This document shows, one piece after another, positions 44,383 through 62,771 of a stretch of DNA of 64,000 bases. The stretch is from Aulosira sp. ZfuVER01 (GTDB lineage: Bacteria > Cyanobacteriota > Cyanobacteriia > Cyanobacteriales > Nostocaceae): NCBI GenBank assembly GCA_034530615.2, contig JAVRCV020000066.1, positions 1-64,000 on the forward strand, written 5' to 3'. Every line of letters begins with the position of its first letter. Within the stretch, counting starts at the first letter, position 1. A model generated the notes under the pieces. It was not told the DNA's origin, did no database searches, and saw only the letters and a program-made list of their open reading frames with translations. A program made the position numbers and the translations under genes.

Positions 44383-47300
44383 ATGAGCCAGTATCTTTCC
44401 AGTAATCTCACTGGTACTGAAGAAACAGAGGTTTTTGTTTTTGCCGCTTCTTTTGCCCAGCAACGGTTATGGTTTCTCAACCAGTTAGTACCAGGCAATC
44501 CATTTTATAATGTGCCAACAGCACTTCGCCTGAGCGGTTCCCTCAACTTCACCGCCTTACAGCAGACATTTAACGAAATTGTCCGCCGCCACGAAACCTT
44601 ACGCACTACGTTTGTAATGGCAGAAGGGCAACTTCTACAGGTAATAGCTCCCACCTTAACCATACCTTTGCCTGTCATAGACCTGCGCAATTTTGAGAGC
44701 CAAGAACGCGAACAACAAGCGCAGCGACTCGCAACCGTAGAAGCTCAACATTCTTTCAATCTGAACACCGGGCCATTGTTGCGATTGACGCTGCTACAAC
44801 TTGATGCAGCAGAATATATCCTACTGCTGAATTTGCATCATATTGTTGCTGATGGTTGGTCTATTGGCGTGCTAATTAGAGAACTAGGCGCACTATATAA
44901 AGCATTTGTCGAGAATAAACCATCGCCTTTGCCAGAACTAACCATTCAGTATGCAGATTTTGCCGAATGGCAGCGGGAGTGGTTGCAACAAGTTGGAACT
45001 AACGGCTGTACACCCCTTGAAACTCAATTAGCTTACTGGAAACAACAGTTAGATGGGGTTTCGCTGCTGAATCTTGCCACAGACAAGTTAAGGCCGGCGG
45101 TTTCCACCTATCAAGGTGCGAAACAATTTATAGAACTACCGCAGTATTTAACTCACAAGCTAGAGCAACTTAGTCAGCAAACAGGTGTTACCTTATTCAT
45201 GACTCTGTTAGCAGCATTCGGGACTTTACTTTATCGCTACACCCAGCAAGAGGATATTGCTGTTGGTACGCCTATTGCCAATCGCAACCGCAGCGAAATA
45301 GAAGGTTTAATTGGTTTTTTTGTTAATAGTTTGGTGTTACGTACTGATTTTTCCGGCAATCCGACGTTTCGAGAATTGTTGCAGCGGGTGCGCGAGGTAA
45401 CTTTGGCAGCATACAACCATCAAGAATTGCCTTTTGAAAAGCTGGTTGAGGAACTGCAACAACAACGAGATTTAAGTCGCCATCCTTTGTTTGGGGTAGT
45501 ATTTAGCCTGCAAAATACTCCCATTCAAGCGCTAGAGTTACCAGGGTTGAGGCTTTCGCAGTTTGATTTCGATAGCAAAACAGCCAAGCTCGATTTAGAG
45601 TTTCACCTGTGGCAAGATTTAGAAAGTCTCAAAGGAGAAGTAGTTTATAGCACCGATTTATTTGATGATATTACTATTACTCGGATGCTGGGGCATTTCC
45701 AAACACTGCTAGAAAGTATTGTTGCCAATTCAGAACAGCGCTTAACAGACTTGCCTTTATTAACTGCAAATGAACAGCAGCAGTTATTGATTGAGTGGAA
45801 TGATACTAAAAGAGAATACGCAGAGAATAAGTGTTTTCATGAGTTATTTGCAGCACAGGTAGAGAAAACGCCGGATGCGATCGCGCTAGTATTTGAACAG
45901 AAACAGTTAACCTATCGCGAACTCAATACTCAAGCCAACCAACTTGCAAGCTACCTACAACAATTGGGAGTACTCCCAGATAGTTTAGTTGGGATTTGCG
46001 TAGAGCGTTCGCTAGAGATGATAGTTGCACTCTTAGGCATCTTCAAGGCTGGTGGTGCATACCTACCTTTAGATCCTAGCTATCCTCAAGAACGTCTTCA
46101 ATTCATGCTAGAAGACACAAAAGTATCAGTTTTGGTAACTCAACAGAAATTTGTTGAGCTTTTTGGGAACGCGGCAATATCTGTAGTTTACTTGGATCGG
46201 GATAGAGAAATAATGGCTTCCCAAAGTCAAGAAAACCCAAATAGCTATGTAACATCTAGCAACTTAGCTTATGTTATTTACACCTCTGGCTCAACAGGCA
46301 AGCCTAAAGGCGTTTTAATCGAACATCGAGGACTTTCTAACTTAATAAAAGCTCAGATTGAAGTTTTTAACTTGCAGCGAAGTAACCGTATTCTGCAATT
46401 TGCATCCTTAAGTTTTGATGCGGCAATTTTTGAGATTGTCATGGCGCTGGGAACAGGAGCAACTCTATATTTAGCAAAGCAAGAATCCCTGCTACCCGGT
46501 CAAAGTTTAATTCAATTATTGCGCGAAAACGCTATTACTCACATTACCCTTCCACCTGCTGTTTTGGTAGTTCTTCCTACAGAATCACTTCCCGCATTGG
46601 AAACTATCATTTGTGCAGGTGAATCTTGTTCCCAGGAGATTGTAAAACGTTGGTGGAGTCCTAATCGGAGATTTTTTAACGCTTACGGCCCAACTGAAGT
46701 AACCGTTTGGTCAACTATTGCTGAAATTAATTCTATTTGTGAAAAACCGCCCATTGGTCGCCCTATTGCTAACACTCAAATTTATATACTAGATAAACAT
46801 TTACAATCTGTACCAATCGGAATTCCTGGTGAAATATATATTGGTGGTCAGGGAATTGCACGAGGCTACCTCAACCTTGATGAATTAACTTTTGAAAAGT
46901 TCATCTCTAATCCTTTTGCCAAAGTAGAAGGAAGTCGTCTATATAGAACAGGTGATTTAGCTCGTTATCGACCAGATGGCAATATTGAATTTTTGAGTCG
47001 CATCGATAATCAAGTAAAAATTCGCGGCTTCCGTATTGAGTTGTTAGAGATTGAATCAGTACTAAATCAGCATGAAAGTGTGGCAGAAGCAGTAGTGGTG
47101 GCTCAAGAAATTGTATCTGGTGAAAAGGACTTAGTAGCTTATATTGTTCCCAAATTAAAGCAGACAGAAATAACAAATAAACTACGAATATTTATCAAAG
47201 ATAAATTACCAGAATACATGGTTCCAAAAATCTTTGTAATATTAGATTCTCTACCCCTCACTCCTAATGGCAAAGTTAACCGCCAAGAACTAGCAGAACT

Positions 47301-48465
47301 TGATATTTCAAATAGCCGTTCCATAGATAAAATCTTTATCGCTCCTCGTAATTCAACCGAGTTAAAGTTGGCAGAAATTTGGGCTGAAGTGCTGAAAATT
47401 GAGCGTATAGGTATTTATGATAACTTTTTTGACTTGGGAGGTAATTCATTACTGTCTGTACGTTTATTAGAACATATACATCAGCAATTTGAGCGTGATT
47501 TACCGTTATCTACCTTATTTTTAAACCCAACAATTGAAAGTTTAGCTACTTCTTTATCAACAAAAACAGATTCTCTACCTTGGTCGCCTTTAGCTAAGAT
47601 TCAGCCTACTGGCTCCAATCCACCTTTTTTCTGTGTTCATCCTATTTTTGGTGTTGTCTTTCCTTATTACGAATTAGCTCATCATTTAGGAAATAATCAA
47701 CCATTTTATGGGTTGCAATCTATAGGTATTGATGGGAAAAATGCTCCGCTAACTAGTATTGAAGATATGGCTAGCCACTACATTAAAGCATTACGTCAAG
47801 TGCAGCCAAAAGGCCCTTATTTTTTAGGCGGTTGGTCTTTTGGTGGTTTCGTTGCTTTTGAAATGGCTCAACAACTTCTAAAGTCTGGGGATGATGTGGC
47901 TCTAGTTGCTATGCTAGACACTTTAGCACCACTTCCTGAAAATATACCTTCCTTAGGTAAGAGCTTGAAGTTTCTTCTTACTACCGTGGCGCGAGATATA
48001 TGGCCTTTTTTCTTGCAATATTGTTGTCTCATAGCGGCTTATATCAAAACTAAAATTAATAATTTAATTTCTCAAATTTTTAATAAATTTAATGAAGCGT
48101 CAGAGACTAATTTATTATCGCACATACTTTTAAAACAGGGTTCTAGAATCAAGTTAATATCTGAGAGGAAGAATTTAGGTCTGTTAAATGAATTAGCAAT
48201 TATCCCAATCTTGCGTACTTTCTACGCTAATAGCCAAGCAGTTATCAACTATATTCCACAAGTGTACCCTAAGCAAATTACTCTGTTTAAAACAAGTAAG
48301 ACATCACGTATGGCTGAGAAGGATTTGAGTATGGGGTGGGATAAGTTGGCTGTCGAGAAAACAGAAATTCATACTATTCCCGGTAATCACCTCACCATTT
48401 TGAGAAAGCCTAATATCCAAGTTCTGGCTGCAAAGTTGAAAGCTTGTATTGAAAAGAGGATTTAG
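44383..48465 (+). CDS. NRPS termination module C-A-T-TE
   Basis: HHIVADG, YTSGSTGKPKG, NAYGPTE, GGNSL, TE GWSFG and GNH; hand-read code DAFTIAAVWK. Confidence 0.95.
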   Translation: MSQYLSSNLTGTEETEVFVFAASFAQQRLWFLNQLVPGNPFYNVPTALRLSGSLNFTALQQTFNEIVRRHETLRTTFVMAEGQLLQVIAPTLTIPLPVIDLRNFESQEREQQAQRLATVEAQHSFNLNTGPLLRLTLLQLDAAEYILLLNLHHIVADGWSIGVLIRELGALYKAFVENKPSPLPELTIQYADFAEWQREWLQQVGTNGCTPLETQLAYWKQQLDGVSLLNLATDKLRPAVSTYQGAKQFIELPQYLTHKLEQLSQQTGVTLFMTLLAAFGTLLYRYTQQEDIAVGTPIANRNRSEIEGLIGFFVNSLVLRTDFSGNPTFRELLQRVREVTLAAYNHQELPFEKLVEELQQQRDLSRHPLFGVVFSLQNTPIQALELPGLRLSQFDFDSKTAKLDLEFHLWQDLESLKGEVVYSTDLFDDITITRMLGHFQTLLESIVANSEQRLTDLPLLTANEQQQLLIEWNDTKREYAENKCFHELFAAQVEKTPDAIALVFEQKQLTYRELNTQANQLASYLQQLGVLPDSLVGICVERSLEMIVALLGIFKAGGAYLPLDPSYPQERLQFMLEDTKVSVLVTQQKFVELFGNAAISVVYLDRDREIMASQSQENPNSYVTSSNLAYVIYTSGSTGKPKGVLIEHRGLSNLIKAQIEVFNLQRSNRILQFASLSFDAAIFEIVMALGTGATLYLAKQESLLPGQSLIQLLRENAITHITLPPAVLVVLPTESLPALETIICAGESCSQEIVKRWWSPNRRFFNAYGPTEVTVWSTIAEINSICEKPPIGRPIANTQIYILDKHLQSVPIGIPGEIYIGGQGIARGYLNLDELTFEKFISNPFAKVEGSRLYRTGDLARYRPDGNIEFLSRIDNQVKIRGFRIELLEIESVLNQHESVAEAVVVAQEIVSGEKDLVAYIVPKLKQTEITNKLRIFIKDKLPEYMVPKIFVILDSLPLTPNGKVNRQELAELDISNSRSIDKIFIAPRNSTELKLAEIWAEVLKIERIGIYDNFFDLGGNSLLSVRLLEHIHQQFERDLPLSTLFLNPTIESLATSLSTKTDSLPWSPLAKIQPTGSNPPFFCVHPIFGVVFPYYELAHHLGNNQPFYGLQSIGIDGKNAPLTSIEDMASHYIKALRQVQPKGPYFLGGWSFGGFVAFEMAQQLLKSGDDVALVAMLDTLAPLPENIPSLGKSLKFLLTTVARDIWPFFLQYCCLIAAYIKTKINNLISQIFNKFNEASETNLLSHILLKQGSRIKLISERKNLGLLNELAIIPILRTFYANSQAVINYIPQVYPKQITLFKTSKTSRMAEKDLSMGWDKLAVEKTEIHTIPGNHLTILRKPNIQVLAAKLKACIEKRI

Positions 48466-48600: not shown

Positions 48601-49602
48601 GTGGACACGCAAAAAGTCGCAGTCTTGAATAGTCCGGCTTGCTACTTCCCCCTGATGAACGGACGCTACGAAGTTAAGCCAGGGATGATGGCGTTTGGCT
48701 CTGATTTCGGTAATGGTGAAGCTGATAGACAAGTGTTTCAAATTGATGAAAATTTTGCTGATTATCGCCAGGCTAAACTTTTAGCGCGTGCCGAACGGTT
48801 GAGTAAATACTACCAGACCTATAAATATTCTACAGTTGTGGCAGGTGCGATCGCTCGTTTGATAGTTGAGCGTCTCACCCAAGATCATCCACAATACTTT
48901 GGCTACCAAAAATCAACAGCAAACACCTTGATATTTCATAGCCAACTCACCAAAGAAACGCTTTATCTAGATGCAGACTGGCAATTACAGCAAGTCGAGG
49001 GTAGTTCAGTTTTTCCAGCTTACACTTCTACCCTTGATGCTCTAGCAGGACAGATACAAGAAGACCTCACAGTTATCTGTCGTGGAAACAATGGTTGCAA
49101 TTGGCTGAGTGCGGTTCATTTATGCTATCCCAATCATTGGTCAGCTGAGGACAAAATTGGTAAAGATTTTGCAGCCATCCATACGCCTGTTGCAGGTATA
49201 GAAAAAATTAATCACCGAGCAGATGCGATCGTTAAGACTATGATTACTAATAAACCAATGGTGCGTTTTGCTTGGGGTTTGAGTACCGATACTCGCCTAA
49301 ACCACCATCCCGAACCACCGCCTGGTTTTTCAGTTAACCAGTGGCAAGGTAGAAACTTTGATCCTCAAAATCCTAGACTTTACTTGCGAATTGAGCGCCA
49401 AGTAATTTGGGGACTACCAGAGTATGAAGCAGCATTATTTACTATTCGTACTTATTTCAGAGATTGTAGCTCAATCAAAAAAGATTCACAGTTACGAGTT
49501 AAACTGTTTGCTGCGATTGAGTCTATGACACCAGAATCACTGGTTTATAAGGGATTAGCAGCCAGTAAAGCTAGTATTTTACATTGGCTAAATGAAGTTT
49601 GA
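48601..49602 (+). CDS. DUF3445 / heme-dependent oxidative N-demethylase alpha-subunit-like protein
   Basis: QEDL, LCYPNHW, KIG..F..IH.PV, R..W, LRIERQ, LFTIRTY motifs. Confidence 0.75.
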   Translation: MDTQKVAVLNSPACYFPLMNGRYEVKPGMMAFGSDFGNGEADRQVFQIDENFADYRQAKLLARAERLSKYYQTYKYSTVVAGAIARLIVERLTQDHPQYFGYQKSTANTLIFHSQLTKETLYLDADWQLQQVEGSSVFPAYTSTLDALAGQIQEDLTVICRGNNGCNWLSAVHLCYPNHWSAEDKIGKDFAAIHTPVAGIEKINHRADAIVKTMITNKPMVRFAWGLSTDTRLNHHPEPPPGFSVNQWQGRNFDPQNPRLYLRIERQVIWGLPEYEAALFTIRTYFRDCSSIKKDSQLRVKLFAAIESMTPESLVYKGLAASKASILHWLNEV

Positions 49603-49713
49603 AAAATTACCAAAATAGTAAATATTGTTTGATATAAGACTTACACATTTGCATAAAATACCCAATATGTATGATTTAAGAAACCACATTGATTGTAGGG
49701 GTTTAGCATTGCT

Positions 49714-49903
49714 CACTGGTGTCAACTTAAGCTTAGAAGCATACAGCGTAAGTCTTTGGGGTTCTCTCTCTTAACACCATAAACTTTTGATCCCCCCTAA
49801 CCCCCTTAAAAAAGGGGGAATTAGAATCTTAGCCCCCTTTTTAAGGGGGTTGGGGGATCAAATATCTTACAACAAAGGGTTTCACGTTAAGTTGACATGT
49901 ATA
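49714..49903. mobile_element. 190-bp MITE inserted into a REP palindrome
   Basis: TGTCAACTTAA/TTAAGTTGACA inverted termini; AGCATTGCT direct repeat at 49705-49713 and 49904-49912; internal palindrome at 49786-49862. Confidence 0.8.
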
Positions 49904-49978: not shown

Positions 49979-52900
49979 ATGTCTTCTGAAGAAGTTTTTG
50001 TCTTTCCAGCATCTTTCGCTCAACAACGGCTGTGGTTCCTCGAGCAGTTGAATCCCGGTGATAGTATTTACAATGTGCCTACAGCAATTCGTTTAACAGG
50101 TTCGCTGAACTTAGCGGCGCTAGAGCAGACGTTTAACGAAATTGTGCGTCGCCACGAGGTTCTCCGTACTAGCTTTACAGTGTTGGATGGACAACCTTTG
50201 CAAGTTATATCACCCAGCTTAACAATACCTCTTAGTCTATTAGACCTACAGCAATTACCAATTGATACACGGGAGGCTGAAGCAAAACGCATTATTAGCG
50301 CCGAAATAGAACATCCTTTTGATTTGTCCTTCGGGCCGTTGCTGCGAGTAATATTACTTGAGCTTTCCCAGACAGAACATATTCTATTGCTGAATATGCA
50401 CCACATAATTTGTGATGATTGGTCGATTGGCTTGCTAATTCGGGAAATCAGCCTTATCTACACAGCTTTTACCCAAAACCAACCCTCGCCTTTGTTAGAA
50501 CTACCTCTTCAGTATGCTGACTTTGCCCATTGGCAACGCGAGTGGTTGCAAGGAGAAGTTTTAGAAACCCAATTAGCTTACTGGCGGCAACAATTGAACG
50601 GTATTTCAATGCTAGATTTGCCTAGCGATAAAAAGCGGCCAAATATACAAACCTATCAAGGAGCAATAGAATTTTTAGAGTTACCGCCACAGCTAACTAA
50701 TGCACTCGAAGCACTGTCCCAGCAAGAAGGTGTCACTTTATTTATGACTATGCTGGCAGCATTTCAAACTTTACTTTATCGCTACACCCATCAAGAAGAT
50801 ATTACAGTAGGTTCGCCAATTGCTAACCGTAACCGTAGTGAAATTGAAGAATTAATTGGTTTTTTTGCAAATAGTTTGGTGTTACGTACTGACCTCAGTG
50901 GAAACCCAACTTTTAAAGAACTGCTAGGCAGAGTACGAGATGTCACCCTCGGAGCATACAGTCACCAAGATTTACCTTTTGAAAAATTAGTTGAAGAACT
51001 GCAGCCAGAGCGAAATTTGAGCCACAATCCCCTATTCCAAGTGGTGTTTGGTTTCCAGAATGCCCCAATGTCAGCACTAGAACTGCCTGGGCTAGTGCCT
51101 AGTTTTATGAATATTGACTTACAAAAAATCCGCTTTGATTTAGAGTTGAACTTGTGGAAGTGTTCTGAAGATTTCCGAAGCCTATGGGGAGGTAAATGGC
51201 AGCTTTCTGAAGGTATTAGAGGTGTAATGGTTTACAACACAACTTTGTTTGAAAAATCTACCATTACCCGGATGTTAGAACATTTTAAAATATTGTTATC
51301 AAGCATTGTGAGAAATGCAGATCAACCTATCAGTAATTTCTCATTACTGAGTGGACAGGAGCTACATCAGATATTAGTAGAGTGGAATGATACTCAGGCA
51401 GATTATCCTCTAGATAAGTGTATTCATCAATTATTTCAAGAGCAGGTAAAGCAGTATCCCGATTGCATAGCTGTAAGCTTTAATAATCAGCAACTCACTT
51501 ATCGAGAGTTAAATAATCGCAGTAATCAACTTGCTCACTATTTACAAAAACTGGGTGTAAAATCTGAAGTTTTAGTAGGAATTTCTGTAGAGCAATCAAT
51601 AGAATTTATTGTAGGTTTACTGGGGATTCTCAAAGCAGGCGGAGCATATCTGCCATTAGACTCTAACTATCCTCAAGAACGCATTAATTTCATGTTGGCA
51701 GATGCAAAAGTTTCTGTGTTACTGACCCAAGAAAAGTTTCTCAAGCATTTTATAGAATTTCCGCATCCAAGTATTTGTATAGATAAAGACTGGGGAATGA
51801 TCACTCAAGAGAGCGAAGAAAATATTACAAGCAACGTCAGCAGCAATAATTTAGCTTATGTAATTTACACTTCTGGTTCTACAGGGAAACCTAAAGGAGT
51901 AGCTGTAACTCACAAAGCTGTAAATCGGTTGGTGTGCAATACCAACTATATAAATTTAGAACCTACTGATAAAGTTGCTCAAGCCTCAAATATTTCCTTT
52001 GATGCAGCAACATTCGAGATTTGGGGAGCGCTACTGAACGGCGCTCAACTTGTTGGCATTAGCAAAGATGTCATCCTTTCACCTCAAGAATTGACATTAC
52101 AGCTAAAACAAAAAGGCATCAGCGTTCTGTTTTTAACTACTGCTTTATTCCAACAAATTGCCAGAAATACTCCCCAAGCTTTTGCAACCTTGCGCTATTT
52201 GCTGTTTGGTGGCGAAACTATTGATATTAGATGGGTAAGAAAAATTATTAAACATGGTGCGCCAAAGCAGTTAATTCATGTATATGGGCCTACAGAAAGT
52301 ACAACATTTTCTGCTTATTACCAGGTGCAAGAAGTACCAGAATTAGCTATATCTATTCCTATCGGTCGCCCAATTACAAATACGCAGATTTATCTACTGG
52401 ATGCTAATTTACAACCTGTTCCCATTGGTGTTGTTGGCGAGTTGTACATTGGGGGTGATGGACTAGCGCGAGAATATCTCAACCGACCTGAGTTAACTGC
52501 TGAATCCTTCATTACAATTCCGGAAACAGGGTTTATTGCAGAGGAAAGACTTTACAAAACAGGTGACTTAGGTCGCTATTTAATAGATGGCAATATTGAA
52601 TTTTTAAGTCGCATTGATAACCAAGTCAAGATTCGCGGTTTCCGCATTGAATTGGGAGAAATTGAAGCAGTACTAAGTGAACATCCAGCAGTGCAGCAAA
52701 CTGTAGTAATTGCGGCTGAAGATATCCCTGGAGAGAAGCAATTGGTAGCTTACATTGTTCCTCATCAAGAACAAAGCCCAACAAGCGTTGAGTTACGTCA
52801 ATTCATGGCAGCAAAGTTACCAGAATATATGCTACCAACAGCTTATATATTACTAGAATTTCTACCATTATCACCCAATGGTAAAGTGGATCGCCGTGCT

Positions 52901-53239
52901 TTACCTGCACATGATACACTCACTTTTAATCAACAAGATTATGTAGCACCCAGAACGCAGATTGAAGATTTACTTGCGGAAATTTGGGCTAAGGTTTTAG
53001 GAAAAGAACAAGTAGGTATTCATGATAATTTCTTTGAATTAGGTGGTCATTCTTTACTAGCGACTCAGTTAGTGTCTCGAATTCGAGATACTTTGCAAAT
53101 AGATGTGCCTGTACGCAATTTATTTGAAGCGCCAACTGTAGAACAACTGGCTAGATATATTGAAACAATGTCTTGGTTAACACAAGGATTAGATAGATCT
53201 GAAGGTGGCGGAACTCAGCGCGAGGAAGTGGAATTTTAA
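49979..53239 (+). CDS. NRPS module C-A-T (Ile-type code)
   Basis: HHIICDD, YTSGSTGKPKG, YGPTE, GGHSL; code DAFFLGVTFK; C-terminal REEVEF. Confidence 0.95.
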   Translation: MSSEEVFVFPASFAQQRLWFLEQLNPGDSIYNVPTAIRLTGSLNLAALEQTFNEIVRRHEVLRTSFTVLDGQPLQVISPSLTIPLSLLDLQQLPIDTREAEAKRIISAEIEHPFDLSFGPLLRVILLELSQTEHILLLNMHHIICDDWSIGLLIREISLIYTAFTQNQPSPLLELPLQYADFAHWQREWLQGEVLETQLAYWRQQLNGISMLDLPSDKKRPNIQTYQGAIEFLELPPQLTNALEALSQQEGVTLFMTMLAAFQTLLYRYTHQEDITVGSPIANRNRSEIEELIGFFANSLVLRTDLSGNPTFKELLGRVRDVTLGAYSHQDLPFEKLVEELQPERNLSHNPLFQVVFGFQNAPMSALELPGLVPSFMNIDLQKIRFDLELNLWKCSEDFRSLWGGKWQLSEGIRGVMVYNTTLFEKSTITRMLEHFKILLSSIVRNADQPISNFSLLSGQELHQILVEWNDTQADYPLDKCIHQLFQEQVKQYPDCIAVSFNNQQLTYRELNNRSNQLAHYLQKLGVKSEVLVGISVEQSIEFIVGLLGILKAGGAYLPLDSNYPQERINFMLADAKVSVLLTQEKFLKHFIEFPHPSICIDKDWGMITQESEENITSNVSSNNLAYVIYTSGSTGKPKGVAVTHKAVNRLVCNTNYINLEPTDKVAQASNISFDAATFEIWGALLNGAQLVGISKDVILSPQELTLQLKQKGISVLFLTTALFQQIARNTPQAFATLRYLLFGGETIDIRWVRKIIKHGAPKQLIHVYGPTESTTFSAYYQVQEVPELAISIPIGRPITNTQIYLLDANLQPVPIGVVGELYIGGDGLAREYLNRPELTAESFITIPETGFIAEERLYKTGDLGRYLIDGNIEFLSRIDNQVKIRGFRIELGEIEAVLSEHPAVQQTVVIAAEDIPGEKQLVAYIVPHQEQSPTSVELRQFMAAKLPEYMLPTAYILLEFLPLSPNGKVDRRALPAHDTLTFNQQDYVAPRTQIEDLLAEIWAKVLGKEQVGIHDNFFELGGHSLLATQLVSRIRDTLQIDVPVRNLFEAPTVEQLARYIETMSWLTQGLDRSEGGGTQREEVEF

Positions 53240-53432: not shown

Positions 53433-53801
53433 ATGAACTATATTTTGATTTGTGATGATGTTTTGGATAACTGTATTTTCCTTCAAACAATTTTAGAATT
53501 AGAAGGTTATACAGTTGAGGTTGTCACATCTGGAATCGACGCCATCAATAGAATTAGGCATCAAAAGCCTGATTTGTTAATGTTAGACTTAATGATGCCT
53601 GATATTAATGGTTTTGAAGTTGCTAATATCATTCAACAAGATAAACATTTACAATCTTTGCCTATTTTGATCGTTACCGCGTATCAAGAAGCAATTGAAT
53701 CAAAGCCAGTTCATATAAAAGTAAATGGAATTTTAGAAAAGCCTGTAGATGTTGATACCTTGGTTCAAAAGGTTCAAGACATTTTAAATGTTGTAAAATA
53801 A
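53433..53801 (+). CDS. Single-domain response regulator
   Basis: ICDD, LDLMMP, VTA, KP. Confidence 0.88.
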   Translation: MNYILICDDVLDNCIFLQTILELEGYTVEVVTSGIDAINRIRHQKPDLLMLDLMMPDINGFEVANIIQQDKHLQSLPILIVTAYQEAIESKPVHIKVNGILEKPVDVDTLVQKVQDILNVVK

Positions 53802-53802
53802 G

Positions 53803-54189
53803 CTAATCTAAAATTTTTCTAACTTGATAAGTTACAGTATCAAAGTCAACAGGTTTTTGAATATATCCGTCAATCTTTAACTCAATATATTTTTTGTTAT
53901 TTATATCAAAAAAATCTTCCTTCCATCCTGTTACTAATAAGATAGGAATATCTTTGAATTTATCAGATTGTCTAATCTTACTTGCAACTTCAAACCCATC
54001 CATTACAGGCATCAACACATCTAATATTATTAAGTCTGGTAAGTTAATACTATTTTTTAGAAAAGCAAGTACTGCTGCAGCTGAATCGACTATTTCAATA
54101 TAACAGTCATCTGCTAATAGTATTGCTTCTAAAAGTCTTGCATCATCAGCAACATCATCGCAAATTAAAATCTGCTTTACAGTATTCAT
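53803..54189 (-). CDS. Single-domain response regulator
   Basis: ICDD, LDVLMP, VTG, KP. Confidence 0.85.
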   Translation of the reverse strand: MNTVKQILICDDVADDARLLEAILLADDCYIEIVDSAAAVLAFLKNSINLPDLIILDVLMPVMDGFEVASKIRQSDKFKDIPILLVTGWKEDFFDINNKKYIELKIDGYIQKPVDFDTVTYQVRKILD

Positions 54190-54449
54190 GAGTATCTTGT
54201 AGCGGTAAGAAGCTACAGGAGAAAATATTTAATAATTTCCGAAAAAATGCTTTATTCCAATTGAAATTATCATACATTTGTTTATAACGGTAATAAAAGT
54301 AGAAGTTACCGTATAGTTGATGACGGATTTCCTAATTCAAATGCTCAGAGTATTTGAAAAAGTAAAACACACCTGCCCTGGCAAATGAAATTCGCGCGCC
54401 AGTTGCTTTAAGAGTATTCCAAAAAATAAATTATCCAGAATCAAAACCT

Positions 54450-54524
54450 GTCATTGCGAGCGAAACGGAGTGTAGCGAAGCAATCTCAAGCTCTCTGCGA
54501 TTGCTTCGCTACGCTCGCAATGAC
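54450..54524. repeat. REP-like palindrome within a patchwork of repeat remnants
   Basis: GTCATTGCGAGCG...GAAGCAATC / GATTGCTTC...CGCTCGCAATGAC. Confidence 0.8.
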
Positions 54525-54707
54525 TGTAATTAATTTTGCGTGGTTACTTATATTTGCTAGTTTTCGCCTTCTTTGCAAAAAACTGAGATGCTCCTCATTC
54601 CTATAGATATATATAGCCAATCTATATTAATTACTTCTAAAGCTAAATACTAAAGTAAAGAATATCAACTTTAATATTATTAATTACTAAAATACGATCT
54701 ACTCATC

Positions 54708-54971
54708 ATGAGAGAAATTGTAACTTTTTTCTTTGGCTTAGGTTTTGTATTTAATGCTAGCTTGTTTATTCCACAAGCTTGGCGAATATTGAAAACCAAA
54801 AGCGCTAGGAATATTTCTTTAATTACTTTCGCTGGGTTTAATCTTATTCAGTTCGATGGAACTCTCTATGGATATTATCAAAATGATTTGATTTTGATGT
54901 ACGGTAATTTAATTAGTTTTATTAGCTGTGGAATAGTAACATTGTTGGCAACATACTATAGAAATAAATAA
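54708..54971 (+). CDS. PQ-loop / SemiSWEET-like small membrane protein
   Basis: FIPQ..RI.KTKSA..IS, three hydrophobic segments, YG, GN. Confidence 0.75.
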   Translation: MREIVTFFFGLGFVFNASLFIPQAWRILKTKSARNISLITFAGFNLIQFDGTLYGYYQNDLILMYGNLISFISCGIVTLLATYYRNK

Positions 54972-54997: not shown

Positions 54998-56116
54998 CTA
55001 ATGATTGACTCTACACTCAGCACAAAAATTGCTGACTGCTTCAGCAAACTGCTGGTTTTGCTCCATTAATGCCATGTGTCCGCCAGGTGTGATTGTAACT
55101 CTCTGAGAATAAGGTAACTCTGCTTTCATGCGATCGCTCGCCACTGGTTTAGTTGCTATATCGGAAGCACCACACACAACCAACGCTGGAACGTTAATAT
55201 TTGCCAGCGTTTTGGTTTCATCGAACTTGAACATTGCTAGTGTGCCACGAGCCAGAACACCAGGGGAACCCAAAGCTGATAACAACCCAGCAAAATTGAG
55301 TTGACCGCGTGTTTCTGTACCCGTAAATCCAGAAAGTTCTACAGTGATGTAGAGCGAACCATTGAGATAAGAAAGCCAAGTCATTAACCACAAAATTGGT
55401 GATAGCACAGTAGTCAGGTACAACAGCGGTTCCAGCAACGGCTTTTGTAATTTACGTACTACACCGCTAAAGATACAAGTTTTCAACGGATTAGTGTAAG
55501 TCGTATCGACAAGAATTAAGCCAGCAACTCTGCGTCCCAAATGCTCTGGAAACAGGCGGCAAAATGTTAGGTTAATCATGCCACCCATGCTGTGTCCTAA
55601 TAAAATCACAGGCTTATCCCCGGCGATAGCAACAACAGCTTCTAAATCACGGGCATATTTTTCTAAAGAATAATCCTTGTTTTTTGGTCTAGAGGATTTT
55701 CCCAAGCCTGGTAAATCCCAAACAATCACGCGAAAGCGATCGCTTAATTGTCGTTTGGCATAATACCATACAGTACTGTTTGGCCCCCAACCATGTGAAA
55801 AGATAATCGGTTGACCATCCTCGGGGCCAAAAAACTCTACTTGCAGTACGCTACCATCTGGTCGTGACAAACGCTGTACGCTTTGGCTACGCATGAACTG
55901 CGGTTCGTCTGAACCAGGACGGCGCAGTAATGGCAAACTGATAAAACGACCGCCAAAAGACCACAGTACCATTACTAGTCCAGCCACCAAGTAGGAAGTT
56001 CCTACAATTTCTCGTTCATACCATTCATAGAGAATGTAGATTCCCCCGCTAAGTATTCCAACCGACAGCAGTTGAACTAGCCATATCAGCAGGAAATTAT
56101 GAGGCATGAATATCAT
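54998..56116 (-). CDS. Membrane-anchored alpha/beta hydrolase
   Basis: Two N-terminal TM segments, HGWG, DLPG.G.S, GHSMGG, GH. Confidence 0.88.
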   Translation of the reverse strand: MIFMPHNFLLIWLVQLLSVGILSGGIYILYEWYEREIVGTSYLVAGLVMVLWSFGGRFISLPLLRRPGSDEPQFMRSQSVQRLSRPDGSVLQVEFFGPEDGQPIIFSHGWGPNSTVWYYAKRQLSDRFRVIVWDLPGLGKSSRPKNKDYSLEKYARDLEAVVAIAGDKPVILLGHSMGGMINLTFCRLFPEHLGRRVAGLILVDTTYTNPLKTCIFSGVVRKLQKPLLEPLLYLTTVLSPILWLMTWLSYLNGSLYITVELSGFTGTETRGQLNFAGLLSALGSPGVLARGTLAMFKFDETKTLANINVPALVVCGASDIATKPVASDRMKAELPYSQRVTITPGGHMALMEQNQQFAEAVSNFCAECRVNH

Positions 56117-56408: not shown

Positions 56409-59400
56409 TTGAAAACGTTTGAATTCTTATCTTATCTTCGCAACTTAGATATTCAAGTTTTTATTGATGGCGAAATATTGCGCTGTAATGCTCCTGAAGG
56501 AAGTTTAACAGCAGAACTCCGTAGAGAAATTCAAGACCGTAAAGCAGAAATTATTGAATTTTTGCAAACTGCTAATCGTACTAATAATTATACTTCTACT
56601 CCGCTTCTACCTATTTCCCGCACCGGAAATCTTCCTCTATCCTTTGCTCAACAAAGACTGTGGTTTCTCGATCAACTATTACCTAACAATCCTTTTTATA
56701 ACGTTCCGGCAGCATTGCATTTAAAAGGTAGGCTTAATTTAGCAGCGCTAGAGCAAAGTTTTAACGAAATTGTGCAACGTCACGAAGCTTTACGCACTAA
56801 TTTTGTTATGCAGTCCGGGAAACCAGTTCAGGTAATTAAATCCCTATTAAAAATATCATTACCAATCATAGATTTGCGGCAACAGCCACCAGCCGAACTC
56901 GAAACAGAAGCACAAAAACTTATTACCCAAGAAGCTCAAAGACCTTTCAATTTAGCAACAGATTCTTTACTACGAGTAAGACTGTTGCAATTGGATGAAG
57001 CAGAATATATCTTGCTGTTGAATATCCACCACATTGTTTCCGATGGTTGGTCTATTGGGGTGCTATTTCAAGAAATTGCCGCACTCTACACAGCTTTTAC
57101 TAATAAACAGCCTTCTCCTTTACCGCAACTAAAAATTCAATATGCAGATTTTGCTCAATGGCAACGCCAATCACTGCAAGGGGAAGTTTTAGAAAATCAA
57201 TTAGCTTACTGGCGAAAGCAATTAAGTAATATTTCTATACTCAATTTACCTACCGACAAACCACGGACAGCCGTTCAATCTCACCGAGGTGCAAGGCAAT
57301 TTATAAAACTACCTAAAAGCTTGAGTGCAGCGCTTTTAACTTTTTCCCAGCAGGAAGGTGTAACTTTATTCATGACTCTGCTGGCGGCATTCCAAATATT
57401 ACTTTACCGCTACACTCAGCAAGAAGATATTGCTGTCGGTTCACCTATTGCCAACCGAAACCGCAGTGAAATTGAAGGATTAATTGGATTTTTTGTGAAT
57501 AGTTTGGTGTTGCGTACCAACTTCAGCGGAAATCCAACTTTTAGAGAATTATTGAGGCGAGTTAAAGAAGTCGCTTTAGGAGCTTACGCTCATCAAGATT
57601 TGCCTTTTGAAAAGCTGGTAGAGGAACTGCATCCAGAACGAAATTTAAATCAAAACCCTTTATTTCAAGTAGCATTTGCAGTACAAAATGCGCCGATGTC
57701 GGCGTTAGAGCTACCTGAATTAACAGTCAATACTTGGCCCTTTGATAGTGGAACAACGCGCTTTGATTTAGAGTTTCACTTGTGGGAGCCGGAAAAAAAG
57801 AATGGTTTCTGGGTAGATAGTTCGGAAGAAATTAGCGGTTTTGTGATTTACAGCACTGAGTTATTTGATGATGCTACTATTACTCGGATGCTGGAACATT
57901 TCCAAATATTACTTGAGGGTATAGTTGCAAATCCAGAACAAAGAATCGCTGAGTTACCCCTTTTAAGTGAATCGGAGTTACATCAGTTATTAGTGGTATG
58001 GAATAATACCAGAGTAGATTATCCTCAAGATAAGTGCATCCATCAATTATTTGAGGAAATTGTAGAGCAAAATCCCGATGCACAAGCACTTGTATTTCAA
58101 GAGCAACAACTTACCTATCAAGAGTTAAATCAACGCAGTAACCAACTTGCACATTATCTCAAAAAATTAGGCGTTGGAAGCGAAGTTTTAGTAGGGCTTT
58201 GTGTAGAACGTTCTTTTGATATGGTAATCGGGATGTTAGCTATCCTGAAAGCAGGCGGAGCATACTTACCTTTAGATCCAAACTATCCGCCTGAGCGTTT
58301 AAAATTTATGCTTGCAGATGCGCAAGTGTCAATTTTATTAACTCACCAGCAATGGGTTGAACGTTTAGGCGATTACAATTCGCAGATAATCTGTTTGGAT
58401 AAAAATTGGAAAGTTATTGCTCAAGAAAGTGAAGATAATCTTTCTAGCAAAGTTACAGTAGAAAACCTTGCTTATGTCATTTATACCTCTGGCTCCACAG
58501 GAAAGCCTAAAGGTGTAGAAATTGAGCATAGAGGATTGTTAAATCTAATTTTTTGGCATCAAAAAGCTTTTACAATTTCATCTCATGACCGAGTAACACA
58601 GATTGCTGGGATTGCTTTTGATGCTTGCGGTTGGGAAATTTGGCCTTACCTAACTGCTGGGGCAAGTATTTATATTGTAGATGATGAAATTAAGCGATCG
58701 CCTGAGCATCTCAAAGATTGGCTGATATCAAAAGCTATCACAATTTCTTTTTTACCAACACCTTTGGCTGAGAAGATTATATCATTAAATTTTTCTCAAC
58801 ATTCAGCTTTAAGAATATTACTAACAGGTGGAGATAAACTACATGAATATCCTTTAGCTTCCCATACTTTCCAGGTAGTTAACAACTACGGGCCTACAGA
58901 AAATACAGTTGTGACAACTTCCGGGCAAGTTAATGTTAAAAATCAAGGTAATATAACACCTACAATTGGTCGTCCCATTGCGAATACACAAGTTTATATA
59001 CTAGATAAAAATTTACAACCTTTACCTATTGGCGTTCCTGGGGAATTATACATTAGTGGTGATGGTTTAGCGCGTGGATATTTAAACCGTGCAGATTTAA
59101 CTGCTGAATGCTTTATGAAGGCAGAGGGCAGATGGCAGAAGGCAGAAGAAGGAAGAGAAGCAGGAAATCGTTTGTACAGAACAGGTGATTTAGTTCGCTA
59201 TCAATTAGATGGCAATATTGAATTTTTAGGTCGCCTTGATGAGCAGGTAAAAATTCGCGGCTATCGCATTGAGTTGGGAGAAATTGAAGCAGTAATAAAT
59301 CAGCATCCAGCAGTAGAGCAAACTGTAGTAATAACTTATGAGGATGCAGGTGAGAAACGTTTAGTAGCTTATGTTGTTCTGAATAGTGAATCCAGCAGCA

Positions 59401-61139
59401 AGCAAGAAAATCAGCAGTTAATGGAATTGCAAGAGGAGCAGGTTTTGCAATGGCAAATGCTCTATAACGAAACTTATCATCAATCTGCTGCCGATTTAGA
59501 TCCAAAATTTAATTTTATTGGCTGGAATAGTAGTTATACAAATAAGCCTATTCCAGTAGAGCAAATGCGTGAGTGGATAGATAACCAAGTCGCGCAAATT
59601 TTAGCTTTGCAACCACAGCGAGTATTAGAAATTGGGTGTGGAACAGGTTTAGTGCTTTTTAGAATTGCTCCTCACTGTTCTCAATATTATGGAACAGATT
59701 TTTCTCCGATTTCAATTAACTACATCCAACAGCAGTTGGCAAAGCAAGCAATACCGCAAGTAACGCTACATCAAAAGATGGCTGATGATTTTGCGGGAAT
59801 AGAAGCAGCAGCTTTTGATGTGGTAATTATCAACTCTGTTGTGCAATATTTTCCTAGTATTGATTATTTAATTCGCGTAATAGAAGGTGCTGTAAAAACA
59901 ACTGCGCCTGGTGGTTTTATCTTTTTAGGAGATGTGTGTAACCTACGACTTTTACAAGCTTTTCATGCATCTGTGCAACTATATCAAGCTGAACCTTCTT
60001 TAACCCGCGCCGAGTTGCAGCAACGGGTACAAATGCAACTTTTCCAAGAGACAGAGTTAGTCATCGATCCTGCTTTTTTTAATGCATTGAAGCAGCAATT
60101 TCCCCAAATTAGCCACGTACAAATTCAACTGATTCGGGGAAAAGAAAGTAATGAGTTAACTCAGTTTCGTTACAATGCTATTCTTCATATTAGCAGCGAA
60201 CAGCAGGAAAGCAGAGAAATACAATGGCTAGACTGGCGTGAAAACAATTTAACAATATCATCAGTAGATCGGTTATTAAATGAGAAGCAACCAGAGATTT
60301 TAGCTATTACCAATGTACCGAATGCACGGGTAATAGCAGCAGTGAAAACAGCAGCATGGCTAGCAGGTGAAGAAGATTTGCAAACAGCAGGCCAGATGCG
60401 TAAGGCTTTGCAAGAAATAGAGAATTTAGGAGTAAATCCCGAAGAATTTTATGAGCTGGCTAATCTACTTCCTTACAGAGTAAATATTAGCTGCTCAGAT
60501 TCTAGTAGTGAAGGAGATTATGATGTAGTTTTTGTACAGGAAGAAGCAATAAATCAAAAAATTGTTTTACCACACAGCACCCAACAACGTGCATGGTCTT
60601 CTTATGCAAATAATCCCCTACAAGCTAAAGCAGCACGTAAGTTAGTACCGCAATTGCAAACTTATTTAACGCAAAAGCTGCCGGATTACATGATACCGTC
60701 TATGTTTGTAGTGCGATCGCACTTACCTCTGACGGCTAATGGTAAAGTCGATCGTCGTGCTTTAAAAGTACCCGATTTCATCAACTCAGAATTAGCCGCA
60801 GGTTATGTTGCGCCTCGAACTCCCGTAGAACAAGTATTAGCGAAAATTTTTGCTGAGGTGCTAGGAATCAAGCACGTTGGTATTCACGACAATTTCTTTC
60901 AGCTAGGCGGACATTCTTTATTAGCAACTCAGCTTATTTCCAGAGTACGCGACAGCTTTGGCTTGGAGTTACCTTTGCGCAGTATATTTGAAGCATCGAC
61001 AATTGCAGAGTTATCTCAGGTCGTGGAAAGCTTTAAACAAAGCAATACTCAAAGTCAAGCCCCAGCTTTAGTACCATTATCCCGTGAAAGTCGGCGGATG
61101 AAGTTGTCTTCTTTAAATAAAGAGAGTCAGGAGAATTGA
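56409..61139 (+). CDS. NRPS module: TubC_N-type docking domain - C - A(Leu-type) - N-methyltransferase - T
   Basis: N-terminal LRCNAPEGSL...KAEII, HHIVSDG, code DAWFLGNVVK, GWNSSY / VLEIGCGTG / NSVVQYFP / NEL..FRY nMT motifs, GGHSL; TTG start. Confidence 0.95.
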   Translation: MKTFEFLSYLRNLDIQVFIDGEILRCNAPEGSLTAELRREIQDRKAEIIEFLQTANRTNNYTSTPLLPISRTGNLPLSFAQQRLWFLDQLLPNNPFYNVPAALHLKGRLNLAALEQSFNEIVQRHEALRTNFVMQSGKPVQVIKSLLKISLPIIDLRQQPPAELETEAQKLITQEAQRPFNLATDSLLRVRLLQLDEAEYILLLNIHHIVSDGWSIGVLFQEIAALYTAFTNKQPSPLPQLKIQYADFAQWQRQSLQGEVLENQLAYWRKQLSNISILNLPTDKPRTAVQSHRGARQFIKLPKSLSAALLTFSQQEGVTLFMTLLAAFQILLYRYTQQEDIAVGSPIANRNRSEIEGLIGFFVNSLVLRTNFSGNPTFRELLRRVKEVALGAYAHQDLPFEKLVEELHPERNLNQNPLFQVAFAVQNAPMSALELPELTVNTWPFDSGTTRFDLEFHLWEPEKKNGFWVDSSEEISGFVIYSTELFDDATITRMLEHFQILLEGIVANPEQRIAELPLLSESELHQLLVVWNNTRVDYPQDKCIHQLFEEIVEQNPDAQALVFQEQQLTYQELNQRSNQLAHYLKKLGVGSEVLVGLCVERSFDMVIGMLAILKAGGAYLPLDPNYPPERLKFMLADAQVSILLTHQQWVERLGDYNSQIICLDKNWKVIAQESEDNLSSKVTVENLAYVIYTSGSTGKPKGVEIEHRGLLNLIFWHQKAFTISSHDRVTQIAGIAFDACGWEIWPYLTAGASIYIVDDEIKRSPEHLKDWLISKAITISFLPTPLAEKIISLNFSQHSALRILLTGGDKLHEYPLASHTFQVVNNYGPTENTVVTTSGQVNVKNQGNITPTIGRPIANTQVYILDKNLQPLPIGVPGELYISGDGLARGYLNRADLTAECFMKAEGRWQKAEEGREAGNRLYRTGDLVRYQLDGNIEFLGRLDEQVKIRGYRIELGEIEAVINQHPAVEQTVVITYEDAGEKRLVAYVVLNSESSSKQENQQLMELQEEQVLQWQMLYNETYHQSAADLDPKFNFIGWNSSYTNKPIPVEQMREWIDNQVAQILALQPQRVLEIGCGTGLVLFRIAPHCSQYYGTDFSPISINYIQQQLAKQAIPQVTLHQKMADDFAGIEAAAFDVVIINSVVQYFPSIDYLIRVIEGAVKTTAPGGFIFLGDVCNLRLLQAFHASVQLYQAEPSLTRAELQQRVQMQLFQETELVIDPAFFNALKQQFPQISHVQIQLIRGKESNELTQFRYNAILHISSEQQESREIQWLDWRENNLTISSVDRLLNEKQPEILAITNVPNARVIAAVKTAAWLAGEEDLQTAGQMRKALQEIENLGVNPEEFYELANLLPYRVNISCSDSSSEGDYDVVFVQEEAINQKIVLPHSTQQRAWSSYANNPLQAKAARKLVPQLQTYLTQKLPDYMIPSMFVVRSHLPLTANGKVDRRALKVPDFINSELAAGYVAPRTPVEQVLAKIFAEVLGIKHVGIHDNFFQLGGHSLLATQLISRVRDSFGLELPLRSIFEASTIAELSQVVESFKQSNTQSQAPALVPLSRESRRMKLSSLNKESQEN

Positions 61140-61230: not shown

Positions 61231-61482
61231 ATGACCACTAAAATTACATTAGAAATTGATGAAGCTTTGCTCCAAAAAGCAGAACGTTGGGCGAAGCAAC
61301 AACAATTGTCGCTTTCTGATGTAATTTCCAATTTTCTACGTCAGTTACCAGAATCTGATTTAATAGCCCAAAATGAACATGCTTTAGCAAAGTTTGCTGG
61401 AATTTTGAGTGATTCTGAAGCTAGAGAATTACAGCAGGCGATCGCAGCAGAGTTTGACCAGATAGACACAAATGAATGGTAA
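61231..61482 (+). CDS. Putative RHH-type antitoxin
   Basis: KITLEIDE.L...A..WA.....SLS pattern; overlaps the PIN gene. Confidence 0.75.
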   Translation: MTTKITLEIDEALLQKAERWAKQQQLSLSDVISNFLRQLPESDLIAQNEHALAKFAGILSDSEARELQQAIAAEFDQIDTNEW

Positions 61483-61861
61483 TGTAGCCTTGGATACTTC
61501 TGTCGCAGTGCGTTTTTTGAATGGCGATGAAGCAGTTGTGGCTCAGGTATTAGCATTGACAAAAGTTATTCTACCAACTGTGGTTGTGGGTGAATTATTG
61601 TTTGGTGCGGAAAATTCAAGTCGTTCTTTACAAAATCTACCGCGTTATCTAGAGTTTATTGAAACCTGTGAAGTAGTAACTTTAGGTCGAGAAACTGCGG
61701 TAATGTATGCTCGAACTCGGTTGGCATTGAAGCAGAAGGGGCGACCGATTCCAATGAATGATGTTTGGATTGCAGCCCAGTGTTTAGAACATGGTTGGCG
61801 GTTGGTCACGGATGATTCAGATTTTGCCTATGTAGATGGGCTGATCTTGGAAAGATGGTAA
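61472..61861 (+). CDS. vapC: PIN-domain toxin, VapC family
   Basis: LDTS, GEL, NDVWIAA, LVTDD acidic residues. Confidence 0.9.
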   Translation: MNGNVALDTSVAVRFLNGDEAVVAQVLALTKVILPTVVVGELLFGAENSSRSLQNLPRYLEFIETCEVVTLGRETAVMYARTRLALKQKGRPIPMNDVWIAAQCLEHGWRLVTDDSDFAYVDGLILERW

Positions 61862-61940
61862 TAGAATTCTATACAATTGCTTGTTACAGATACACAATGC
61901 ACTAGAACCAACAGTTTAAAGTTTATTCAACACTCAAAAT

Positions 61941-62771
61941 ATGCCAAGTGGTGTTCATGATTCAGCCTTGATTGTTAACGCTTTTCGCGCCAGAAAAATT
62001 CATATTAGTGCCGATAAATTTGCAGCATTATGGATTTCACCAGAAAGCGATATCTGGGCAAATAAGTATGCAGAACAAGTTGGCTCGACGGAAATTTTAG
62101 TACACGCCCTGCGCCATAGATTTTTTCTTGAGTGTTTAAATAAATTTTTTGATAAGTCTTCAGATGGCGTATTTATTAATATTGGCGCTGGATTTACAAA
62201 CTATCCCTACCTAATATCATTAAAAATTCCTTGCTGTGAAATTGATACAGAAGTCAACATCAAATTCAAGCAGCAAAAGCTAGCCGAGTTTGAACTTAAG
62301 GGCAATTTTCCTTATCGCCAGCTTCAATTTATAACTGTGAATGATTTGAACGATTTGCCTGAGATTTCTCATCTGGAGTTAGTTTTGAGAGAATGGATAG
62401 GCGATCGCTCCTCATTTATACTTTTTGAAGGTGTGTTCTTTTACTTAAAAATTGAAGCGATCGGTCATTTTTATAGAATGTTAGCTGCTCTACAGCAGAG
62501 AGGCGATATTGTAGCTAGCACTTCATTTCGTCCAGAAGAATGTAACAAATTAATGTTTCAAAGGCTGGTAGATTATTGCAGAACAGATTACAAAATGAGG
62601 AATTTTACACCTACAACAATTTCTACAAGCTTTTATTCTCAGCAATCAAACTATTCCTTAGTCACTCATAAAAATTATTACAGTTTGTGCCAGGAGTTTG
62701 CTTTGGCAGAAACACTAGAAAATCCAGAGGAAGTTTTAGAGGAAGACTGCTATGTCCTAGAACGGCTGTAG
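61941..62771 (+). CDS. Class I SAM-dependent methyltransferase (LCM/TcmP-like)
   Basis: SALIVNAFRA, LRHRFF, INIGAGF, EID, FEGVFFYL. Confidence 0.75.
   Translation: MPSGVHDSALIVNAFRARKIHISADKFAALWISPESDIWANKYAEQVGSTEILVHALRHRFFLECLNKFFDKSSDGVFINIGAGFTNYPYLISLKIPCCEIDTEVNIKFKQQKLAEFELKGNFPYRQLQFITVNDLNDLPEISHLELVLREWIGDRSSFILFEGVFFYLKIEAIGHFYRMLAALQQRGDIVASTSFRPEECNKLMFQRLVDYCRTDYKMRNFTPTTISTSFYSQQSNYSLVTHKNYYSLCQEFALAETLENPEEVLEEDCYVLERL

What the first reader, a model, noticed from the sequence alone, without database searches (positions are those of the whole stretch)
44383..62771. Orphan three-gene monomodular NRPS pathway predicted to build an Ile / N-methyl-Leu / Phe-like peptide
Seen: three co-directional single-module NRPS genes (C-A-T-TE; C-A-T; dock-C-A-nMT-T), with a DUF3445-like gene and an LCM-type methyltransferase in the same orientation. 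No epimerase, PKS, MbtH, PPTase or obvious loading module lies in the window. Specificity codes read by hand against GrsA positions are DAFTIAAVWK, DAFFLGVTFK and DAWFLGNVVK. Established: the last two match the Ile and Leu codes of cyanobacterial NRPSs; the first resembles Phe/Tyr codes but has an unusual Trp at position 331. Inference: a short, hydrophobic N-methylated peptide with oxidative and methyl tailoring. I cannot match this architecture to a characterised cyanopeptide from memory.
Basis: partly seen in the sequence, partly recalled or inferred. Interest (0 to 1): 0.8.

Follow-up and report, generated by a model that had tools for sequence, protein, structure and literature searches.

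The report
Widespread orphan three-module cyanobacterial peptide synthetase
Three single-module peptide-synthetase genes here belong to a set kept by many soil and freshwater cyanobacteria, predicted to make a still unidentified small N-methylated peptide (isoleucine, N-methyl-leucine, then a phenylalanine-like residue), possibly in a loop that repeats the first two steps; the two neighbouring 'tailoring' genes are passengers.

Summary
The set is not rare: module 2 occurs in 33 of 151 family genomes, and all three genes are intact in 34 genomes from 7 families. It is probably Calteau's orphan family CF-39 (not verified by sequence). It is self-contained: closed genome G173 has no other condensation domain and no modular PKS. 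Docking ends, and the gene order in distant relatives, give the assembly order 49979 (Ile), 56409 (NMe-Leu), 44383 (Phe-like, TE). The tailoring claim fails. DUF3445 lies beside the NRPS in 2 of 80 loci, and the LCM gene was not found in 9 of 9 other carriers. The oddity is the first module's condensation domain. It has no outside donor, yet it is LCL-type, keeps its docking head, carries an acidic HHxxxD[D/E] motif in 40 of 40 orthologs, and is as constrained as the working domains (dN/dS 0.15). A loop giving (Ile-NMeLeu)n-Phe is my best guess (0.4); a silent or acylating domain remains open. Earlier scan notes held nothing on this system.

The parts
49979..53239 (+). Module 1 of the line (N2): C-A(Ile code)-T. 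Atypical C motif HHIICDD; C-terminal docking tail REEVEF
   Evidence: first in the collinear clusters of distant relatives
49991..50017 (+). N-terminal acceptor head EVFVFPASF of N2, same type as the head of N1
   Evidence: E at -7 in 40/40, F at -3 in 40/40, F at -5 in 37/40 N2 orthologs
50399..50419 (+). Active-site motif HHIICDD (Gly replaced by an acid)
   Evidence: D or E in 40 of 40 N2 orthologs; G in 41 of 41 N1 and 38 of 38 N3
56409..61139 (+). Module 2 (N3): TubC_N docking domain-C-A(Leu code)-N-methyltransferase-T. TTG start; basic C-terminal tail
   Evidence: (the MT matches 5wmm, E 5.8e-53)
61062..61112 (+). C-terminal tail PALVPLSRESRRMKLSS of N3, predicted donor docking element
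   Evidence: P, R, R invariant in 34 of 34 aligned; a similar tail/head pair occurs at a gene junction in another cluster of this genome (C8)
44383..48465 (+). Module 3 (N1): C-A(Phe-like code, Trp331)-T-TE, termination module
   Evidence: Trp331 in 41 of 41 orthologs
54998..56116 (-). Alpha/beta-hydrolase with a hydrophobic N-terminus (Ser176/Asp319/His347 by motif). The conserved but dispensable accessory gene
   Evidence: in or beside the cluster in 17 of 44 genomes fetched
48601..49602 (+). DUF3445/HODM-like gene: passenger, not part of the pathway
53433..54971 (.). Two response regulators (seen here only among the fetched loci) and a SemiSWEET (genus-level passenger)
61231..62771 (+). VapB/VapC pair and LCM-type methyltransferase: strain-specific insert, not part of the pathway

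Best explanation
Three single-module NRPS proteins form a self-contained set that is predicted to load Ile (49979), add N-methyl-Leu (56409) and finish with a Phe-like aromatic residue released by the thioesterase (44383), and the first module's condensation domain likely takes chains back from the second module, which would give (Ile-NMeLeu)n-Phe with the tripeptide as the shortest member. Shown: domain content, codes, co-occurrence, gene order in relatives, lack of an outside carrier donor in a closed genome, conservation of the N2 head and acidic motif, and passenger status of DUF3445 and LCM. Inferred from established NRPS logic: the order N2-N3-N1, the residues, and TE release (about 0.85 for this core). 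Inferred and untested: the loop. The hydrolase probably trims or turns over the product (speculative).
For: Order: the N2 tail REEVEF faces the TubC_N domain of N3, the N3 basic tail faces the EVFVF head of N1, and 8 distant genomes have the genes adjacent as N2-N3-N1. Self-contained: closed genome G173 has 3 C domains (the trio), 5 carrier domains and no modular ketosynthase. Its two other carriers are a small ACP beside FabF and an ACP in an unrelated acyl-ligase locus, whose tail does not match. For the loop: N2-C is LCL-like (388 bits to Txo2; 68 to the RzmA starter domain 7c1h and 51 to CDA-C1; fold search agrees). It keeps both His and the Asp, and its head is as conserved as N1's. dN/dS is 0.15 against 0.15 and 0.16 for the working C domains. 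In G196 its C-terminal part is 96-100% identical to N3's in three 50-column blocks. An HHxxxDE domain is active and still accepts Leu, 75% against 92% for the Gly mutant (PMC8097023, passages). Single-module RXP subunits do iterate (PMC9872161, passages).
Against: No product, expression or binding data. The acidic residue lowers acceptance of bulky acceptors in FscG, and Ile is bulky. The head and the low dN/dS could be kept by structure alone or by gene conversion among the three paralogous C domains. HHxxxD[DE] is not unique: 19 of 237 motif matches among 120 homologous proteins. The residue calls rest on recalled code tables, and DAFTIAAVWK was not found in print. The extra C-less A-MT-T module of G196 carries an N2-type tail, which fits N2 being only a replaceable starter.
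Confidence: 0.4

Rival explanations
1. Strictly linear tripeptide Ile-NMeLeu-Phe (free, or cyclo-dimerised by the TE). N2's C domain is silent or a gatekeeper that holds the Ile amine and supports its A domain; the acid blocks back-transfer.
For: An initiation C domain thought to be inactive exists in nostocyclopeptide NcpA1 (PMC7551626, passage). In FscG the acid binds the acceptor amine and disfavours Leu. G196's alternative C-less starter has the N2 tail. No MbtH was found in the genome, so C-A contact may be structural.
Against: NcpA1 has lost its catalytic His (HQIVGDL); N2 keeps HH and D in 40 of 40. Head and dN/dS are no more relaxed than in the working domains.
Confidence: 0.27
2. N-acylated lipotripeptide: N2-C transfers an acyl group from acyl-CoA or the fatty-acid ACP to Ile, and the hydrolase removes it or detoxifies the product.
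For: It is the first C domain with no carrier donor, and a serine hydrolase with a hydrophobic N-terminus is often linked. Acyl-Ile starts are recalled from nostopeptolide (no call).
Against: The domain is far from solved starter domains, groups with N1-C and N3-C (SH-aLRT 93, quick tree), and its C-terminal part is interchangeable with N3's in G196. No acyl ligase or GNAT is tied to the trio. Many carriers lack the hydrolase.
Confidence: 0.22
3. One reading: DUF3445 oxidises and the LCM enzyme methylates the peptide.
For: Both genes are co-oriented with the NRPS in this window. DUF3445 sits right after N1 in two same-genus genomes (G004, G113).
Against: DUF3445 is beside the NRPS in 2 of 80 loci; an MMADHC-like gene occurs in 46 of those 80 loci. 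An intact copy was not found in 9 of 21 trio genomes. LCM was not found in 9 of 9 carriers, including the two nearest, and lies in an insert with VapBC.
Confidence: 0.05
4. The trio is the peptide half of a larger hybrid (microginin or nostoginin type) whose loading PKS lies elsewhere.
For: The genes work when separated by up to 341 kb. An acyl-X-NMe-X-aromatic pattern resembles microginins (PMC9594780, passages) and cycad BGC 5 (10.1101/121160, section 18).
Against: G173 and G386 have no modular ketosynthase. G173, G425 and G196 have only the trio's three C domains. No acyl-AMP ligase-sized gene beside an ACP was seen in G356 or G386.
Confidence: 0.04

Closest known systems
Cluster family CF-39 of Calteau et al. 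2014 (PMC4247773; passages and supplementary table rows read; Figure 5 not held)
   Same: NRPS-only, 11.5-22.5 kb, 4-6 genes, a conserved hydrolase, synteny kept in filamentous strains and shuffled in heterocystous and unicellular ones, product unknown.
   Different: Identity was not checked by sequence. The passages I read give no assembly order, atypical C motif or docking logic; their Figure 5 with substrate calls could not be seen. They list 8 clusters; here 34 intact sets.
Rhabdopeptide/xenortide (RXP) NRPSs of Xenorhabdus and Photorhabdus (PMC9872161, passages)
   Same: Two to three single-module subunits, each with an N-terminal C domain, non-polar residues, embedded N-methyltransferase, docking-guided transfer; iteration is shown there.
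   Different: RXPs end in a terminal C domain that adds an amine; here a TE. Only N3 has a TubC_N-type domain and its own tail is of another type, so self-iteration of N3 is not expected; any loop would be N3 back to N2.
Fuscachelin FscG C3 domain with HHxxxDE (PMC8097023, passages)
   Same: Acid in place of Gly after the catalytic Asp, in an LCL-like domain (7kvw among N2-C's matches).
   Different: FscG C3 is internal and takes Gly. N2-C is first in line, has no outside donor and precedes an Ile module.
Microginins / nostoginins (PMC9594780, passages)
   Same: Short linear peptides; a predicted N-methylated aliphatic residue followed by an aromatic one recalls them (residue patterns recalled).
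   Different: [quoted passage not shown]

Membership tests
CF-39 | NRPS-only cluster of 11.5-22.5 kb with 4-6 genes | tested here: met
   three NRPS genes plus hydrolase; N1 start to N3 end is 16.8 kb
CF-39 | Conserved hydrolase gene in the cluster | tested here: met
   in or beside the cluster in 17 of 44 genomes fetched
CF-39 | Synteny kept in some lineages; shuffling, domain recombination and duplication in others | tested here: met
CF-39 | Presence in the eight named strains, over 52% identity, same A-domain calls | tested here: inconclusive
   a Microcoleus vaginatus protein is in a homologous hydrolase cluster, but none of the eight strains appeared by name; Figure 5 is not held and the tree supplement gave 429 characters
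RXP NRPS | Single-module subunits C-A(-MT)-T for non-polar residues | tested here: met
RXP NRPS | Release by a terminal C domain with an amine | tested here: not met
   TE with GWSFG in 40 of 41 N1 orthologs and GYSFG in one
RXP NRPS | Iterative use of subunits | not testable with these tools
Microginin (mic) | FAAL/ACP/PKS making a 3-amino fatty acyl starter | tested here: not met
Starter (lipo-initiation) C domain | Sequence closer to solved starter domains than to LCL domains | tested here: not met
   388 bits to Txo2 against 68 (7c1h) and 51 (4jn3); subtype labels of these entries are recalled
Degenerate initiation C domain (NcpA1 type) | Loss of the catalytic histidine | tested here: not met
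   HH and D kept in 40 of 40

The most novel reading that the evidence does not exclude
An old, class-wide cyanobacterial three-protein NRPS runs as a two-protein loop with an exit. N3 hands its chain either back to N2, whose acid-substituted C domain sets the odds, or on to N1-TE, giving an undescribed series of alternating N-methylated peptides (Ile-NMeLeu)n-Phe. It works even when its genes lie hundreds of kilobases apart.
Probability: 0.33. Interest if true: 0.72.

Novelty: new member of a known kind. Interest (0 to 1): 0.47.

Why it matters
About one in five sampled genomes of this family, and members of six other families, keep this set with nearly fixed specificity codes, yet no product was found in the papers searched. 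In G173, G425 and G196 its three C domains are the only ones in the genome, which suggests a basic role in terrestrial cyanobacteria. It needs only three genes (12 kb), so it is an easy expression target. The first C domain offers a direct test of what an acid in the HHxxxDG motif does before a bulky acceptor, and of whether split cyanobacterial NRPSs loop through shared docking heads. The Trp331 code would add a new entry to A-domain prediction.

Tried and rejected
Paper searches (10 of 10 used): DAFTIAAVWK gave 0; HHxxxDD with condensation domain 0; six code variants gave 1 unrelated hit; CF-39 gave only Calteau 2014; a five-of-six-term genus search 0; DUF3445 with cyanobacteria 0; the tripeptide search gave 5 listings whose titles and abstract openings did not point to this system, none opened; a broad search gave 33 papers, 20 listed. 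The library lacks most subscription journals, and MIBiG and antiSMASH were not available, so a described product cannot be excluded. PMC4558948 (passages) gave nothing specific. PMC10212144 and PMC3547906 (passages) gave only motif background. One paper on Nostoc metabolomes was not held. Cycad BGC 5 was rejected as a match: it is described as exclusive to those strains, Val/Ile/Tyr, with a peptidase. A GNAT beside the cluster in 4 genomes was rejected: it is in 70 of 151 genomes and not found in carriers G020, G021, G007 and G017. A sucrose-synthase-like glycosyltransferase beside it in 4 genomes is not conserved. The FAAL-ACP locus of G173 and G196 is a separate acylation locus. No RNA holder was listed, which is no evidence on expression. 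Complex prediction of N2-C with the N3 tail was not available, so docking is untested. The C-domain tree is the quick version and the careful run did not finish; N1, N2 and N3 are not clean clades. The AlphaFold model of N2-C (pLDDT 82.5) shows an ordinary C fold with the N2 insert as a short helix. Three look-ups of earlier scan notes returned unrelated findings.

Full report
Observation. The ORFs and domains are as stated. I call them N1 (44383-48465, C-A-T-TE), N2 (49979-53239, C-A-T) and N3 (56409-61139, TubC_N-C-A-MT-T). An ungapped alignment to GrsA (1AMU) fixes the pocket positions, and a script reads DAFTIAAVWK, DAFFLGVTFK and DAWFLGNVVK. That the last two mean Ile and Leu is recalled from code tables, not from a call. 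N1's A domain is 64% identical to this genome's DAWTIAAVCK domain and 59% to its DASTIAAVCK domain (Phe and Tyr labels recalled), so an aromatic residue is likely. Trp239 to Phe with Cys331 to Trp looks like a swap of pocket bulk (inference). The MT matches the interrupted A-MT domain of 5wmm (its N-methylating role is recalled). Carrier serines, A10 lysines and the TE triad motifs are intact. The contig holds no further NRPS. The genome has one PPTase elsewhere and no MbtH was found. Named relatives place the genome among Nostocales.

Distribution. In 151 genomes of the family, the N1 query matched 39, the N2 query 37, of which 33 at 69% identity or more, and the N3 query 29; only 7 candidates per genome were scored, so these are lower bounds. 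In 401 genomes of the class the N2 query matched 17. I fetched regions for a subset. Of 44 genomes with at least one near-full-length gene, 34 had all three, from 7 families. The ten others include cases cut by contig or fetch ends and cases with broken genes. Codes are nearly fixed: Trp331 in 41 of 41 N1, DAFFLGVTFK in 32 of 40 N2, DAWFLGNVVK in 30 of 37 N3 read, with DAF[IL]IGAIWK in 6 N3 from distant families. Of the 120 best protein-database hits to the N1 TE region, 108 carry DAFTIAAVWK and three named ones are plasmid-borne. Kin are not independent, so these counts are descriptive.

What belongs. DUF3445 matched 60 of 151 genomes, but among 80 loci around it only 2 hold these NRPS genes (many loci are cut short by contig ends). 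An MMADHC-like gene occurs in 46 of 80. In four close relatives DUF3445 is followed directly by the SemiSWEET, with no NRPS within 10 kb. An intact DUF3445 was not found in 9 of the 21 family genomes with the intact trio (G021, G025, G039, G044, G060, G065, G120, G135, G150). The LCM gene was not found in 9 of 9 other carriers, with G000 as positive control. In G004 and G113, N3 is followed almost directly by the genes that here come after the VapBC-LCM-HxlR-YcaC block. The minus-strand hydrolase lies in or beside the cluster in 17 of the 44 genomes. It matched 18 of 151 family genomes, 14 of which carry trio genes and 4 of which do not; many carriers lack it. So it is linked but dispensable.

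Self-contained. Closed genome G173 has exactly three C domains, five carrier domains and no modular ketosynthase. The two extra carriers are a small ACP beside FabF and an ACP in an unrelated acyl-ligase locus. G425 and G196 also have only three C domains. The 'fragment of a larger cluster' and microginin readings therefore fail for G173 at least. In the family the genes are often shuffled and dispersed, by 155 kb in G069, 177 kb in G060 and 341 kb in G021, yet stay intact, which fits free proteins meeting through docking ends.

Order. N2 ends in REEVEF-like tails, and N3 begins with a TubC_N domain. N3 ends in a basic tail with invariant P, R and R, and N1 begins with an acidic EVFVFPxSF head. 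A similar tail/head pair joins two genes of another cluster in this genome. Eight distant genomes have the genes adjacent as N2-N3-N1. The line is thus predicted to run Ile, NMe-Leu, aromatic, TE.

The oddity. N2 is first, yet it begins with a C domain and with the same head as N1, equally conserved. Its motif has Asp or Glu in place of Gly in 40 of 40 orthologs, against Gly in all 79 N1 and N3. It is LCL-like, not starter-like, and keeps both histidines, unlike NcpA1, whose first C domain is suggested to be inactive (PMC7551626, passage). Its dN/dS against seven relatives has a median of 0.15, equal to N1-C (0.15) and N3-C (0.16) and below the A domains (0.20-0.25). In a quick tree the 45 trio C domains group apart from seven other C domains of this genome (SH-aLRT 93). 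In G196 all three cluster together, with near-identity of N2 and N3 in the C-terminal part while the motif region stays distinct. In FscG an HHxxxDE acid contacts the acceptor amine, helps Gly and lowers Leu from 92% to 75% (PMC8097023, passages), so such domains are active but disfavour bulky acceptors. Such motifs make up 19 of 237 matches among 120 homologues, so the motif is uncommon but not unique. In G173 the only carrier with a tail matching N2's head is N3. The simplest active role is therefore a return of the chain from N3 to N2, as iteration occurs in the RXP single-module systems (PMC9872161, passages). Against this, gene conversion or structure could keep the domain, and G196 has an extra C-less A-MT-T gene with N1's code, N3's MT (83%) and N2's tail, which could simply replace N2 as starter. 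I rate the loop 0.40, a silent domain 0.27 and acylation 0.22.

What is known. Calteau et al. 2014 (PMC4247773; main-text passages; table rows; PDF supplement searched) list CF-39: 8 NRPS clusters of 11.5-22.5 kb, 4-6 genes, a conserved hydrolase, shuffled in heterocystous and unicellular strains, product unknown. Size, hydrolase and shuffling all fit, but their Figure 5 and the domain-tree supplement could not be seen, and they bear on identity; I put it at about 0.8. No other paper in the library holds the term with cyanobacteria and NRPS, and searches for the codes and motif found nothing relevant. MIBiG could not be searched.

Verdict. This is a real, intact member of a widespread and probably already listed orphan family. 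The new elements are the assembly order, the breadth of the family and the conserved acid-substituted first C domain without an outside donor. Interest 0.47.

Noticed in passing
L044:9257-11011 and other loci: An MMADHC-like (cobalamin-trafficking family, PF10229) gene occurs in 46 of 80 DUF3445/HODM loci, usually directly upstream of it. This may point to DUF3445's real role in Nostocales. In this genome the two genes are on different contigs (C30 and C66).
   Followed up: partly
window 56409-56411: N3 starts with TTG here and in 20 orthologous loci where the start could be placed by pattern, most behind a GAAG[GA]GG-like site. This could set N3 below N1 and N2 in amount.
   Followed up: partly
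L239:12541-15744 (-), G196: Chimeric C-less A-MT-T gene upstream of N2: N1-type code, N3-derived MT and T, N2-type tail.
   Followed up: partly
L233-L236, L238, L240, L241: In distant families the N3 A domain carries DAF[IL]IGAIWK and resembles N1's A domain, which suggests a domain swap that changes residue 2.
   Followed up: partly
window 51152-51208 (N2 residues 392-410) and the matching N3 loop: N2 and N3 share a Leu-Trp-containing insert in the C domain that N1 lacks; it is modelled as a short helix.
   Followed up: no
L001:7748-9742 (-), contig C66 beyond the window: A 664-aa protein-arginine deiminase (PAD and PAD_M domains, E 2.4e-155).
   Followed up: no
L001:1956-2286: Low-complexity tandem repeat reading as STAANAS-like units on one strand, just past the YcaC gene.
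   Followed up: no
window 49694-49923 and 54436-54538: Nested inverted repeats in the spacers before N2 and before the SemiSWEET, probably small dispersed repeats.
   Followed up: no
window 40355-44182: CHAT-NTPase-TPR protein (1275 aa) at higher GC (46%) directly upstream of N1, not seen beside N1 in the nearest relative G004.
   Followed up: no
G150:C13 and G069:C1: G150 carries two inverted copies of the trio with identical scores on one 105-kb contig; G069 has two copies of the hydrolase with identical scores.
   Followed up: no
G000:C30:14586-20371: Two tandem A-like-T-TE proteins (887 and 880 aa) with divergent adenylation domains.
   Followed up: no
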